From the NCBI RefSeq assembly GCF_009914755.1, contig NC_060935.1: a stretch of 64,000 bases of DNA, one strand, 5' to 3'. Source of the DNA: the human T2T-CHM13v2.0 reference genome, Homo sapiens. A program made the translations under genes and the position numbers. The notes under the pieces are model-generated. The model was not told the DNA's origin, did not search any database, and was given only the letters and a program-made list of their open reading frames with translations. Shown here piece by piece: positions 15,084 through 19,304 of this stretch. Numbering within the stretch: the stretch's first letter is position 1; each line of letters starts with the position of its first letter.

Positions 15084-16914
15084 TCAATATGTAATCTAAT
15101 GAAGGCTGCAGACCAAAATTTGGGTGAAGCAATTTATATAGTAGCTTGGGTTTTATTGTTGTTTGTTGGTTTGTTTGTTTTTCTTAGCCTCTTTAACATT
15201 TATATTTTATTTATTCAGTCTCAAATGAGTTTAGAGTTAAATTTTCAATTGTTTACATTGTAGCTAGGACTGGTTGAATTGTATTATAAAAACAAAATCT
15301 CCAGTGTTGAACTAGTAACAAATCTATCTTTTTTTATTTTATTTTAATTTTTTTTGCAGGTCTGTTTTGCTTGATTAACAAATGGAGACAAGAAAGAATT
15401 TTAGCAGGATTTGTTGTTTTTTTCGCAGGGGCTGGGGGGTTAGTCTTTGTGTGGCAGAAAAAGCAAATTTTTTATGCCAGACAAAGATGATTTATATTGT
15501 TTAGAGTTCAAGATTTTGACCTGTTAGACCTGAGAGCCTAACATTTATACATATTTATCTAGCTCTTTTTATAGATTATTAATTTTTCAATAAATTATTT
15601 CATCACCATAAACAAATTTTAGTCAGGTAAACCTAAATTTACATTTTCTAATGGTGTCTAGGTTGTTGGTTACCATGGAGCTCTTGTAATTTGTGAAGCT
15701 ATTAATTTAAAAGCCCTTTAATACTTTTAAAAAAGTCTTGACTAGAATGCCACAAGCGGTGAGTTTTATGTCAACCCCAGTAGAAAAGTCAGCAGATTCA
15801 AAGTAGGCAGTAAGAAAAAACAAGAAAGAGAGACAGTGAACTTAGAAGTCTCTACATGCTTAGCATGGTAGTTGCAGATCTCTAAAAGAGTTTAAATAAT
15901 GAACATTTGAGCTCTGAATTTTTCTTGATGTAACATTGCTTGTCAATTTTAAAATGTGCATAAGCATGAGCCATAAAATGTGGCTAGCTGGAGTCCCAAA
16001 AACCTGTCATGCCTTTATGTTTAAAAAACCCATTCTGTTTCTTACTCATCTCTTGAGAGCAAAGAAAATATTATCATTCCTATCAGGAAATGTCAGGAGT
16101 TTAGAGCAGTGTTTTAGATGGTAGCAATTGCACTAATGGCTTTTAATTAACCTTTCTGCACCCAACATTTGGAATATATTTTTGCTTTCAGAATAATTTT
16201 TTAAAAAGCAAGGGAAAAGAATCAAACCAAATCAAAAGAAACCAAGATAAGAGCATTCATAAAAATTTCAACCTCGGCGTAGAGATCAAACAAAATATTC
16301 AACTAAGCACAGAGACCAAAAGTGAATTCACCGCAAAAGACATGCCTTCTAGATAGAATGTAAATTCTGTAGAACCAGAGTACTCAATCCAGAAAGACAC
16401 ATGTCTTTACACCAGAAAAGATATACCACAAAAGACAAAAAGTATTTTATCACCCCAGGAGGGATGCATAGTCCCTTATTAGGTGACTTTATAAAAAAAA
16501 AAAGATCCTGACTAATATAAAAAAGCCTCTACTAAAAGAGGCAGGCTCAGCCTAAGAGAAGACTCATCAGGGCAGAAAAGTGAGCCAAGGAAGTGGAGGA
16601 AAGCACAAGGGCCTCAAGTGAGCACTGCACATCAGTTCAAGAATCACCAGTTTCTTTGGATCATTATCTTTTTCGGGTTCTATTTGTGACACCATATATG
16701 TCAACCTAAATAACAAACACAGAGAGGCTATCTAAAAGAAAAATAGGTTTATCTGAGAATAGAGTGTTGCTGTGGGAATACAAATGCCACAGTAAACCGT
16801 ATGCATATTCGGGGAGGTAATGGAAGACAAAGATTTTTTTAAAAATGAGAATTATGTGATTATTTTGAAATAATAATCTTTGGCTACATAGATTGATGAC
16901 AAGGGTGATGCCTG

Positions 16915-17568
16915 TTTTTTGTTGTTGTTGTTGTTGTTTTGTTGTTTGTTGGTTTTGCTGAAACATGCAGAGAATTTTTATTTATCACAAATGTTAATAC
17001 TTATATTTACTTGCAGAACAGAGTCACAGAGAGATATGCAGGCAAGGTATTAGTGGGGTTCAAGGGTTTCGCACAACATTTAGTACACAGTAGGTTGCTC
17101 ACTAAGGACTTGTCATATTTTGCTCAAATGCCAACTTTTGGTACCTTAGATTGTCAATTAGTCATTTCTTATATAGATGATTTTTTGGATAATTGTCATA
17201 CTACATTTTTACCAATTAAGGATTTCAGTCCATTTTTTATTACTTTTTTCAATCATAATTCAAGGTCAGGAAGTAGGAGCCCCATCCCCGCTCCCTTCCA
17301 GACAACAGAATAGTATTCTTACTAGGAGTTCCTAAGACCTAGCAATTCCAGCATGCGAATTGTGAGAGGACATAGCCAGGAAGATGAGAAACTGTAGCCA
17401 TCATCCAGGGGTAATATATTCCATCTCTGTTGCTCCTTGCAGCCTGCAGGTCCTCTTCAGTGCCCTCTCCATTAAACCCATTAACATGTAGGATCCTCAT
17501 CTGCTTCACATTGGTGCCTTTACCAGATTCTCCAGCACCCAGGAGTAGCAGGCGGTCCATGGCACGGT
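16915..17568 (-). pseudogene. 5'-truncated processed pseudogene of GNAS (Gs-alpha exon 1 end, exon 2, exon 3, alternative terminal exon, poly(A))
   Basis: Peptide [45 protein letters not shown] matches Gs-alpha long form; intronless; AATAAA (minus 16977-16982) 20 nt before an A-rich tail at 16915-16956; candidate TSD GATGCCTG/GATGCTTG. Confidence 0.9.
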
Positions 17569-17739
17569 CGATGCTTGGCTGGACAGGCAGTTTCTGGGCA
17601 GGTGTCCTTGCAGAAGTACTCTTTTTCTGTAAAGTTGTGATGACCTTTGTGCAAGGTGTAGTTTTTGCAGTCTTTTATGATAGTTTTATCAGGAATACAA
17701 GCATGAGAAACCTCTCTTAATTCCCTCCGCTGGCTCTTT

Positions 17740-17917
<178 letters not shown>

Positions 17918-19304
17918 TAACACTAGTGACTTCATTTTGATTCCGGAAACTTTTATAAATGCAACCGATATTCATTTTAGTATTTCTCAACATAATCTAC
18001 AAACAACCCACATTACAAGCGCTTGGGCTGCTTTAATGAAAGCAGATTCCTGGGGGCTGACCTGCAACCTCCTAAGTTAGAAACACTGGGGCGCTCTTAG
18101 GTGCAAAGAATTTGAGAACAATTTGTTACTTGAGTGTTTATAACATGCTAGGCACTGTATGTAGTCCTTACTTGAGTAAACTCCTTTAAACAACCCTAAA
18201 AAGAGATGAATTATCCCTATCTTACATATGAAGAAATTGAGGCTTTACATTGTTGACTAGTGATGGAGAACTTGAATCCTTCTTAGTTGTTGAAAGACAA
18301 ATGCTTTTTCAAGGATATCCCATCTGTCTCTAGTGTGAGCAGTCAGCTCTGATTTCTTAGGCATGCTTCCTAAACGTCATGACATATAATGACAGGCAAT
18401 CTGTTGCTCAGATGAAAAACAATTTCTTCACAGACACTCCTTTTGGGAAAACAAATATTTGTTTAGGCTGACTATATTGTGGACTGATTTCTTTGTTTGT
18501 CCCTGCATCTGTCTGCAAAATACACAAATGACCTGGGATTGCTGGTGCTGGGAAATGAATGTGGAATACCAAACAATTCTGTAGTGGTTTTAGGGTATAA
18601 TGACATCATTAGAGGACACCCAGAATATCAATTCTCTTGACTTGTTTGTCTTCTGAGTCGGGGTTACCCATTTGTTTATTCCGTAAATATTTATTGTACA
18701 TCTATTATGTGCCAGGTACTATTCTAAGAAGTGGAGATATGTAACATGCAACAGAAACAAAAATCCTTGCTCTACACTATGGGCTTCTATCTCCGCTTTA
18801 CCCCAGTGACCCAGTAAAAAAAAGTAAATAGAGAGCTGTACGTACTGCCACAGGTAATTTGACCATTTAGCAACATTTTCCAGTTATTTTGCATTTCTTT
18901 ACACAATTCCTGGAAAAGCCTATGAAGATGCATAAAGTAAAATGCAAAGTTTTGAAGTAGTGGAGTCTCAATAAATGAAAACATCCTTTAAAGAGTGGTT
19001 CTTTCTTTATTTTATATTCAATATGTTTTATTCAATTATGGTCATTATACTTTTAATATGAAATTGTCTAAAATGCACCCAGTGGAAACTTCTTCAAGCT
19101 AGCTTCTGGGTCATTTAAACATGTCCCTATAATTTTTGAATATTTTCTTAGTTTCTGCCACAAGATGTCCCAGACTCATCTTATGCAATCCTTGACCAAA
19201 ACTTGGGAGTTTCAAGGAGTTCTGGGTCCTTCCAGTGGAAAAATGGTATTTAGTTACCAAAACTTGTGTTTTGTGTGTGCTTATAGCTGCTGGATTTTCT
19301 TTTC

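What the first reader, a model, noticed from the sequence alone, without database searches (positions are those of the whole stretch)
16915..17568. GNAS retrocopy of a truncated isoform (exon 3 joined to an alternative terminal exon) inside an ERV LTR
Seen: spliced Gs-alpha sequence whose blocks fit the end of exon 1 (17539-17568), a 73-nt exon 2 (17466-17538) and a 45-nt exon 3 (17421-17465). Homology to the canonical mRNA stops exactly at the exon 3 end; instead of exon 4 (EKATKVQ) about 465 nt of other sequence run to AATAAA and an A-rich tail. Known: GNAS has a neural-enriched transcript in which exon 3 splices to terminal exon N1 in intron 3. Inference: this is a fossil of the N1 mRNA, implying germline or early-embryo expression of that isoform in ancestral primates. 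The exon 3 peptide excludes GNAL.
Basis: partly seen in the sequence, partly recalled or inferred. Interest (0 to 1): 0.7.

Follow-up and report, generated by a model that had tools for sequence, protein, structure and literature searches.

The report
Dead GNAS N1-isoform retrocopy on chr11
This is an old, dead, intron-less copy of a short brain-type messenger RNA of the GNAS gene that landed inside a retroviral repeat on chromosome 11; it is an ordinary processed pseudogene that is very probably already annotated.

Summary
Both the observation and the interpretation hold. On the minus strand, 17577-16955 aligns in order to GNAS on chr20 of the same assembly: the last 41 nt of Gs-alpha exon 1, exon 2 (73 nt), exon 3 (45 nt), then 462 nt lying 963 nt into intron 3.

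That intronic block has the features of exon N1. It follows a pyrimidine tract and AG, has a stop after two codons, and carries AATAAA. It ends exactly where the retrocopy's A-rich tail starts. All three introns are removed at the parent's splice sites.

The 5' piece fits exon 1, not the XL exon. No other copy was found in the genome.

The copy sits in a TG..CA solo LTR that also holds an Alu monomer. No target-site duplication is visible. Divergence is about 8.5-9%.

The locus is very probably GENCODE pseudogene RP11-100N3.2. That gene is listed in a published survey of G-alpha retrogenes and is named as partner in a reported "RP11-100N3.2-GNAS fusion", whose breakpoints fall on this copy and on GNAS exon 4. 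I found the N1 origin in none of the papers I searched or read. Low interest.

The parts
17539..17577 (-). 3' end of GNAS Gs-alpha exon 1 (39 nt covering the last 41 parental nt). This is the 5'-truncation point of the retrocopy.
   Evidence: Aligns to chr20:60674955-60674995, 33 of 39 identical with one 2-nt gap. Local alignment score is 24 against exon 1 and 12 against the XL exon end.
17466..17538 (-). GNAS exon 2 (73 nt), joined to exon 1 with no intron.
   Evidence: 70 of 73 identical to chr20:60678743-60678815. The parent has AG before and GT after this block.
17421..17465 (-). GNAS exon 3 (45 nt).
   Evidence: 40 of 45 identical to chr20:60682073-60682117. The parent has a GT donor after it.
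16955..17420 (-). GNAS terminal exon N1 (466 nt here, 462 nt in the parent), up to its poly(A) site.
   Evidence: 420 of 459 aligned bases identical to chr20:60683081-60683542, with 5 gap events. The parent block starts right after a pyrimidine tract and AG. It ends where parental genomic sequence and the retrocopy part ways.
16977..16982 (-). AATAAA poly(A) signal, inherited from N1.
   Evidence: Identical in parent and copy, 22 nt before the end of homology.
16914..16954 (-). Decayed poly(A) tail (41 nt: 29 A, 12 C, partly a CAA repeat).
   Evidence: Absent from the parent, which continues with unrelated T/GT-rich sequence.
17578..17741 (-). Host LTR, the part upstream of the retrocopy.
   Evidence: 80-83% identical to 8 of 8 fetched copies of a dispersed repeat. 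The genome search gave 551 first-look candidates, 40 of them scored.
16699..16913 (-). Host LTR, the part downstream of the retrocopy, ending in CA.
   Evidence: In 7 of 8 fetched copies it follows within 0-11 nt of the upstream part; the eighth gave no match on this side. The common end of homology is at 16698/16699.
17907..17957 (-). Host LTR, 5' end (decayed TG start), separated from the rest by the Alu monomer.
   Evidence: Matches the start of the repeat in 2 of the 8 copies by BLAST, and by eye against the alignment. Boundaries are good to about 15 nt.
17742..17895 (-). Alu-type monomer with an A-rich tail, a separate insertion into the same LTR.
   Evidence: Sub-threshold Rfam Metazoa_SRP match at 17778-17894 (45 bits against a gathering score of 70, E 6e-10). 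Many Alu-like hits in the GNAS locus.

Best explanation
A polyadenylated Gs-alpha-N1 messenger RNA of GNAS (exon 1, 2, 3, then the alternative terminal exon N1) was reverse-transcribed and inserted into a pre-existing solo ERV LTR on chromosome 11, in a cell of the germ line or early embryo of an ancestral primate. Reverse transcription started at the poly(A) tail and stopped, or the cDNA was joined, 41 nt before the end of exon 1. The copy therefore has no start codon, no promoter of its own and none of the exon 4-13 domains. It has since decayed as neutral DNA, about 8.5-9% from the parent, with P-loop residues changed and the N1 stop lost. It does nothing as a gene. Its practical effect is that its exon 2-3 stretch can attract GNAS reads.

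Shown: the exon order, the exact splice joints, the poly(A) site, the tail, the position inside the LTR, and that this is the only such copy found. Inferred: that LINE-1 did the work, the cell type, and the age (roughly 25-70 million years).
For: - **Colinear hits to GNAS.** Exon 1 end, exon 2, exon 3 and N1 match on one strand, with E-values from 1.6e-4 to 1e-177.
- **Exact splice joints.** Block ends coincide with GT donors after exons 1, 2 and 3 and with AG acceptors before exon 2, exon 3 and N1. Introns of 3747, 3257 and 963 nt are cleanly absent.
- **Poly(A) site.** Homology ends 22 nt after AATAAA, and a 41-nt A-rich tail absent from the parent follows.
- **N1 frame.** The parent frame through exon 3 into N1 gives ...SNSDGI then stop. 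This fits the printed description of Gs-alpha-N1 (PMC2671723).
- **First exon.** Exon 1 scores 24 and the XL exon 12.
- **Copy number.** The whole-genome search with the GNAS-derived part gave 8 of 8 scored candidates: the locus itself, three GNAS exon blocks, and four exon-2 paralogue hits. There was no second copy.
- **Host LTR.** The flanks are adjacent in other LTR copies.
- **Decay.** 14 of 157 coding positions differ, most of them amino-acid changing (S to G in the GAGESGK motif, T to M, H to D, I to N, G to T, P to L, S to R).
- **Minimum age.** A published survey lists RP11-100N3.2 as a human G-alpha retrogene expressed in human and macaque (PMC5896119). If that is this locus, the insertion is at least as old as the catarrhine ancestor.
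Against: - No target-site duplication is present. None of the 9 direct-repeat families spans the two junctions.
- About four LTR positions that the 8 other copies carry at this point are missing.
- The target shows no T-rich LINE-1 nicking site. The classic LINE-1 signature is therefore incomplete.
- The exon 1 assignment rests on only 39 nt at 85% identity.
- The age estimate has no outgroup and wide binomial limits: coding 5.0-14.5%, N1 6.1-11.4%.
- The identification with RP11-100N3.2 depends on two coordinate offsets and assumes no indels between assemblies. It misses the exon 2 end by 4 nt.
Confidence: 0.96

Rival explanations
1. Same retrocopy, different insertion route. The cDNA was captured at a DNA break (endonuclease-independent LINE-1 insertion or RNA-templated break repair) rather than by canonical LINE-1 nicking and target-primed reverse transcription.
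For: No target-site duplication. About 4 LTR positions are lost at the site. The target has no T-run. A few bases at the 5' joint fit both the LTR copies and exon 1, which looks like a microhomology join. PMC12065846 raises break repair as a possible source of processed pseudogenes (discussion passage).
Against: A full A-tail starting exactly at the mRNA poly(A) site is what priming on a nicked T-run gives, and break-capture events often lack tails (general knowledge, recalled). The pre-insertion sequence of this particular LTR copy is unknown. A short duplication or a private deletion therefore cannot be excluded.
Confidence: 0.2
2. The source RNA was XL-alpha-s-N1 (or another alternative first exon spliced to exon 2), not Gs-alpha-N1.
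For: The XL exon ends in a sequence similar to the end of exon 1 (PMC5896119 passage). XLN1 is the better-studied neural N1 form (PMC3256176).
Against: A local alignment of the 62 nt upstream of exon 2 gives 41 aligned nt with exon 1 (score 24) and only 16 nt with the XL exon (score 12). The copy keeps the exon-1-type R-A codons where XL has M-C.
Confidence: 0.03
3. The copy is alive. It is transcribed, perhaps from the LTR upstream on the same strand, and encodes a short peptide or forms real chimeric RNAs with GNAS.
For: A 111-codon stop-to-stop frame runs from the LTR through exons 1-3 into N1. A new ATG (T to M) opens a 73-codon ORF because the N1 stop was lost. PMC5896119 says RP11-100N3.2 is transcribed in human and macaque. 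PMC6487730 reports RT-PCR of a RP11-100N3.2-GNAS product.
Against: PMC5896119 found no conserved ORF and no upstream promoter. Most coding differences change amino acids, and divergence is equal in coding and non-coding parts (8.9% against 8.5%, Fisher p 0.87), as expected without selection. The 'fusion' breakpoints sit at the normal exon 2 to exon 4 joint, and the product was seen in normal as well as tumour samples. Reads from the abundant parent can mimic expression.
Confidence: 0.04
4. Chance junction or chimera of two unrelated RNAs.
For: None found.
Against: The 3' block comes from the same gene, same strand, 963 nt downstream of exon 3, and starts at a proper acceptor. The isoform is described in print.
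Confidence: 0.005

Closest known systems
LINE-1-mediated processed pseudogenes (retrocopies) of human genes
   Same: Intron-less copy of a spliced, polyadenylated mRNA. It has an A-tail at the mRNA's own poly(A) site, is 5'-truncated, lies on another chromosome, has no promoter and has decayed at a neutral-like rate.
   Different: No target-site duplication and no T-rich nick site. About 4 host positions are lost. The template is a minor, terminal-exon isoform rather than the main mRNA.
GNAS Gs-alpha-N1 / XLN1 transcripts (exon 3 or 2 spliced to terminal exon N1; PMC2671723, PMC3256176, PMC4319783)
   Same: Exon 3 joined to N1, N1's early stop in the parent, and N1's own poly(A) signal. The exon 3-containing (long) form was the template.
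   Different: This is a DNA fossil, not a transcript. It lacks most of exon 1, and in the copy the stop is mutated (TAA to TAT).
RP11-100N3.2, GENCODE/Ensembl pseudogene on chr11 (PMC5896119; PMC6487730)
   Same: Chr11, minus strand, and paired with GNAS by similarity. Its reported breakpoint, hg19 chr11:56503838, maps to about window 17470, inside the exon 2 part of this copy. This is also the only GNAS-derived copy found in the genome.
   Different: I could not see the annotation record itself, its coordinates or its biotype. The identity is inferred. The passages I read from these two papers do not mention N1.
Other primate G-alpha retrocopies (GNAI2P1, GNAI2P2, GNAQP1, GS1-124K5.9, AC010975.2; PMC5896119)
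   Same: Same gene family and same process in primate evolution.
   Different: GNAQP1 and GS1-124K5.9 keep long ORFs and are argued there to be functional. This copy holds only 157 coding nt and cannot make a G-alpha domain.

Membership tests
Processed pseudogene (retrocopy) | Exons joined exactly at the parent's splice sites, with introns absent | tested here: met
   Three joints (exon 1/2, 2/3, 3/N1) fall on GT..AG boundaries of the chr20 parent. Introns of 3747, 3257 and 963 nt are missing.
Processed pseudogene (retrocopy) | Poly(A) tail at the mRNA's cleavage site, not encoded in the parent gene | tested here: met
   A 41-nt A-rich tail starts 22 nt after AATAAA. The parent continues with unrelated sequence.
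Processed pseudogene (retrocopy) | Flanking target-site duplication of about 7-20 nt and a T-rich LINE-1 nick site | tested here: not met
   No direct repeat spans the junctions. Compared with 8 other LTR copies, the site shows a loss of about 4 positions and no duplication.
Processed pseudogene (retrocopy) | Lies away from the parent gene and lacks its promoter | tested here: met
   Chr11 against chr20. The copy begins 41 nt before the end of exon 1, inside an LTR.
GNAS Gs-alpha-N1 isoform as template | Exon 3 spliced to a terminal exon lying between exons 3 and 4 | tested here: met
   The block is at chr20:60683081-60683542. Exon 3 ends at 60682117 and exon 4 starts at 60686655/8. Definition taken from PMC2671723.
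GNAS Gs-alpha-N1 isoform as template | In-frame stop codon in N1 and N1's own polyadenylation signal | tested here: met
   The parent reads GGA ATA TAA. AATAAA lies near the end, with a T/GT-rich stretch downstream.
GNAS Gs-alpha-N1 isoform as template | First exon is Gs-alpha exon 1 (not XL, NESP55 or A/B) | tested here: met
   Score 24 over 41 nt for exon 1 and 12 over 16 nt for XL. No other hit in the 80-kb locus. The piece is short, so support is moderate.
GNAS Gs-alpha-N1 isoform as template | The chr20 block is the exon that the literature and transcript catalogues call N1 | not testable with these tools
   No transcript annotation of GNAS and no printed N1 sequence was available. The match is by position and signals only.
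Solo ERV LTR (host element) | TG..CA ends, a few hundred nt long, many dispersed copies | tested here: met
   Six aligned copies start with TG and end with CA in 5 of the 6; L008 ends differently. The element is about 430-500 nt. There were 551 first-look candidates genome-wide, 40 scored.
Solo ERV LTR (host element) | Short (4-6 nt) target duplications, and copies that flank retroviral internal sequence | tested here: inconclusive
   By eye, 1 of 6 copies shows a clean 4-nt flank repeat and 3 show 3 of 4 bases. The two same-strand pairs examined are not proviruses. The chr6 pair looks like a 3-kb tandem duplication, and the chr11 pair is only 72% alike. The family could not be named, because no repeat library is held.

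The most novel reading that the evidence does not exclude
The copy can serve as a frozen sample of the N1 exon. The almost entirely non-coding N1 block differs from its retrocopy no more than the coding exons do (8.5% against 8.9%). If most coding differences arose on the dead copy's side, the living N1 exon has hardly changed since the insertion. That would mean purifying selection on about 460 nt of RNA that encodes a single extra residue, and so an RNA-level role for a transcript whose function is still called unknown in print (PMC2671723). The present counts (14 of 157, 39 of 459, no outgroup, CpG-rich coding part) cannot separate this from neutral change on both sides.
Probability: 0.3. 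Interest if true: 0.35.

Novelty: already known. Interest (0 to 1): 0.13.

Why it matters
It matters little for biology. It is one more processed pseudogene in an olfactory-receptor cluster.

There are three modest points:

- **Age of the N1 splice.** The exon 3 to N1 splice and the N1 poly(A) site were in use, and the RNA reached heritable cells, in an ancestor of catarrhine primates. This is consistent with the isoform being shared by rodents and humans, though it is described as neural.
- **False fusion calls.** The copy's exon 2-3 stretch is close enough to GNAS to mislead read mapping; the last 23 nt of exon 2 are identical. A published 'recurrent RP11-100N3.2-GNAS fusion', seen in normal and tumour liver, has breakpoints that fit the ordinary exon 2 to exon 4 joint of short Gs-alpha. 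GNAS-based assays and fusion callers should mask this locus.
- **Use as a reference.** With primate orthologues it would give a dated reference point for measuring constraint on N1.

Tried and rejected
- **Provirus pairs to prove the ERV nature of the LTR.** The chr6 pair (L008/L009) is 95% alike over 449 nt, but a second block with an Alu repeats at nearly the same spacing, so it is a tandem duplication. ORF lists there were not pursued. The chr11 pair is 72% alike, which means two separate solo LTRs. The family name stays open.
- **Supplement of PMC5896119.** Table S4 and Fig. S1 would give parent genes and primate distribution of the retrogenes. Only one 145-character file was readable and the terms were not found. 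What those files say about RP11-100N3.2 is unseen.
- **Fig. S5 of PMC6487730.** The Sanger trace of the 'fusion' is a picture and not readable.
- **'GNASP1' as a gene symbol.** 0 papers.
- **Direction of change from CpG decay.** Differences fall at 7 parental CpG sites against 3 retrocopy CpG sites in N1, too few to decide.
- **Exact lift-over of the chr11 breakpoint.** The offset from two OR9G4 variants puts it 4 nt from the exon 2 end. An indel between assemblies or a shifted call cannot be told apart.
- **Dating by primate presence or absence.** No other primate genome is held.

Full report
**What is there.** Read on the minus strand, the window holds a frame that contains ...[46 protein letters not shown]... 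This is a recognisable but mutated stretch of Gs-alpha.

The window's own assembly (T2T-CHM13) could be searched. The 806-nt query matched itself, one place on chr20 at 90% identity over the 3' 467 nt, and dozens of dispersed places for its first 142 nt.

**Alignment to GNAS.** I fetched 80 kb of chr20 around that hit and ran BLAST against it. Four colinear, same-strand hits came out:

| Window (minus strand) | chr20 (T2T) | Identity (BLAST) | Part |
|---|---|---|---|
| 17577-17537 | 60674955-60674997 | 81% | exon 1 end |
| 17542-17465 | 60678739-60678816 | 95% | exon 2 |
| 17458-17421 | 60682080-60682117 | 95% | exon 3 |
| 17421-16955 | 60683080-60683542 | 89.6% | N1 |

The remaining hits in that search were mostly Alu-like or A-rich tail sequence and short chance matches.

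**Exact anatomy.** The parental blocks have the following context.
- Exon 1 ends in ...CTGCTGG followed by GTAAG.
- Exon 2 (73 nt) has AG before it and GTAAG after it.
- Exon 3 (45 nt) has AG before it and GTAGG after it.
- The fourth block starts immediately after a pyrimidine tract and AG. It ends 22 nt after AATAAA and is followed by T/GT-rich sequence.

An alignment against the four parental blocks runs without a break from window 17577 to 16955. The scores per block are:

| Block | Identical / aligned | Gaps |
|---|---|---|
| Exon 1 end | 33 / 39 | one 2-nt gap |
| Exon 2 | 70 / 73 | none |
| Exon 3 | 40 / 45 | none |
| Terminal block | 420 / 459 | 5 gap events |

After 16955 the copy continues with a 41-nt A-rich tail (29 A, 12 C). 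The parent continues with unrelated sequence.

**Is the terminal block exon N1?**
- It lies 963 nt after exon 3 and 3115 nt before exon 4, which I located by its peptide.
- In the exon 3 frame the parent reads GGA ATA TAA. The predicted protein ends ...SNSDGI.
- Two mouse papers call the N1 forms neural (PMC3256176; PMC4319783).

Position, acceptor, stop and poly(A) signal all fit. I could not see a transcript annotation or a printed N1 sequence, so the name rests on these features.

**Which first exon?** The XL exon ends in a sequence similar to that of exon 1 (PMC5896119). The 62 nt upstream of exon 2 in the copy align to exon 1 over 41 nt (score 24) but to the XL exon over only 16 nt (score 12). 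The template was therefore Gs-alpha-N1, not XLN1, although the evidence is short.

GNAL is excluded. Exon 2 is 95% identical to GNAS and 81% to the chr18 paralogue.

A whole-genome search with only the GNAS-derived 623 nt scored 8 of 8 candidates. These were the locus itself, three GNAS blocks and four exon-2 paralogue hits on chr18, chr1, chr16 and chr7. No second N1 retrocopy was found.

**The host element.**
- The 5' flank (17741-17578) matches 8 of 8 fetched copies of a dispersed repeat at 80-83%.
- The 3' flank (16913-16699) matches 7 of the 8, and there the two flanks are adjacent or 6-11 nt apart.
- An alignment of six copies shows an element of about 430-500 nt. All six start with TG and five of the six end with CA; L008 ends differently. 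An A-rich variable stretch lies near the start.
- In the window the element runs from about 17957 to 16699. It is interrupted twice: by an Alu-type monomer (sub-threshold Rfam SRP match at 17778-17894) and by the GNAS copy.

This is the anatomy of a solo LTR. I could not name the family or find a provirus. The two same-strand pairs that I examined are a tandem duplication and two unrelated solo copies.

**The junctions.** No direct repeat spans the two ends of the insertion. Compared with the 8 other LTR copies, about four positions are missing at the site. A few bases at the 5' joint could belong either to the LTR or to exon 1.

The usual LINE-1 hallmarks, a target duplication and a T-rich nick site, are therefore absent. 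Either the event was a break-capture type of insertion, or this LTR copy differed from its relatives before the insertion. Only an empty orthologous site can tell.

**State and age.**
- The copy has no start of the parental reading frame. It carries amino-acid changes in the GAGESGK motif and elsewhere, and it has lost the N1 stop.
- Divergence is 14 of 157 (8.9%, 95% limits 5.0-14.5%) in the coding part and 39 of 459 (8.5%, limits 6.1-11.4%; K2P 0.091) in N1. The two do not differ (Fisher p 0.87).
- Using recalled primate neutral rates of about 1-2.2 per 10^9 per year, the age is roughly 20-45 million years if both sides drift, and up to about 90 million if the parent stood still.
- PMC5896119 reports RP11-100N3.2 as transcribed in human and macaque. 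If that is this locus, the insertion predates their split.

**Already annotated?** RefSeq has no row here (hub table).

PMC5896119 lists seven Ensembl-annotated human G-alpha retrogenes, including RP11-100N3.2.

PMC6487730 reports a 'recurrent fusion' RP11-100N3.2-GNAS, chr11-chr20, supported in 9 normal and 8 tumour samples (main-text table). Its breakpoints are hg19 chr11:56503838 (minus) and chr20:57478583 (plus) (Table S6).

I mapped both breakpoints onto this assembly, assuming no indels between assemblies.
- **chr11 side.** I derived the hg19-to-T2T offset from two OR9G4 variants printed with hg19 positions (PMC4673451). I found their codons in the window. The chr11 breakpoint lands at about window 17470, inside the exon 2 part and 4 nt from its end.
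- **chr20 side.** The offset from R201C (PMC7400786; codon found) puts the breakpoint on the first base of exon 4 in its CAG-including form.

So the annotated pseudogene very probably is this retrocopy.

The 'fusion' looks like the normal exon 2 to exon 4 joint of short Gs-alpha with its exon 2 side placed on chr11. The last 23 nt of exon 2 are identical in copy and parent. That last step is my inference.

My literature searches and the passages I read turned up no mention of the pseudogene's N1 origin. The supplements of PMC5896119 were not readable.

**Verdict.** The object is an ordinary, dead, 5'-truncated processed pseudogene of a minor GNAS isoform. It is very probably already in gene catalogues. 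Its only unusual traits are the terminal-exon isoform it records and the missing target duplication.

Noticed in passing
window 17466-17538 (exon 2 part of the copy) and T2T chr20:60686655: A published 'recurrent fusion' RP11-100N3.2-GNAS in liver tumours and normal liver (PMC6487730) has breakpoints that map to about 4 nt from the copy's exon 2 end and to the first base of GNAS exon 4. It is most simply the normal exon 2 to exon 4 joint of short Gs-alpha, mis-assigned to the pseudogene.
   Followed up: partly
window 17742-17895, minus strand: An Alu-type single monomer with an A-rich tail sits in the A-rich part of the same LTR. It has a sub-threshold Rfam Metazoa_SRP match (45 bits, E 6e-10). 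It is an independent insertion, and its order relative to the GNAS copy is unknown.
   Followed up: partly
window 17339-17560, minus strand: An ACG to ATG change in the exon 1 piece, together with loss of the N1 stop (TAA to TAT), gives a 73-codon ATG-started ORF within a 111-codon stop-to-stop frame. There is no evidence that it is used.
   Followed up: no
window 17574-17578 and 16911-16915 (the two junctions): There is no target-site duplication. About four LTR positions seen in 8 other copies are missing, and a few bases at the 5' joint are shared by the LTR copies and exon 1.
   Followed up: partly
L009/L008 (T2T chr6:131924485-131930638): Two copies of the same LTR lie 3012 nt apart and are 95% alike over 449 nt. 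A second repeated block holding an Alu lies at nearly the same spacing. This looks like a local tandem duplication of about 3 kb, not a provirus.
   Followed up: partly
T2T chr20:60683081-60683542 (parent N1, in L016): In this assembly the N1 exon adds a single codon (Ile) before the stop. Nearly all of its 462 nt is 3' untranslated, yet it differs from the old retrocopy no more than the coding exons do.
   Followed up: partly
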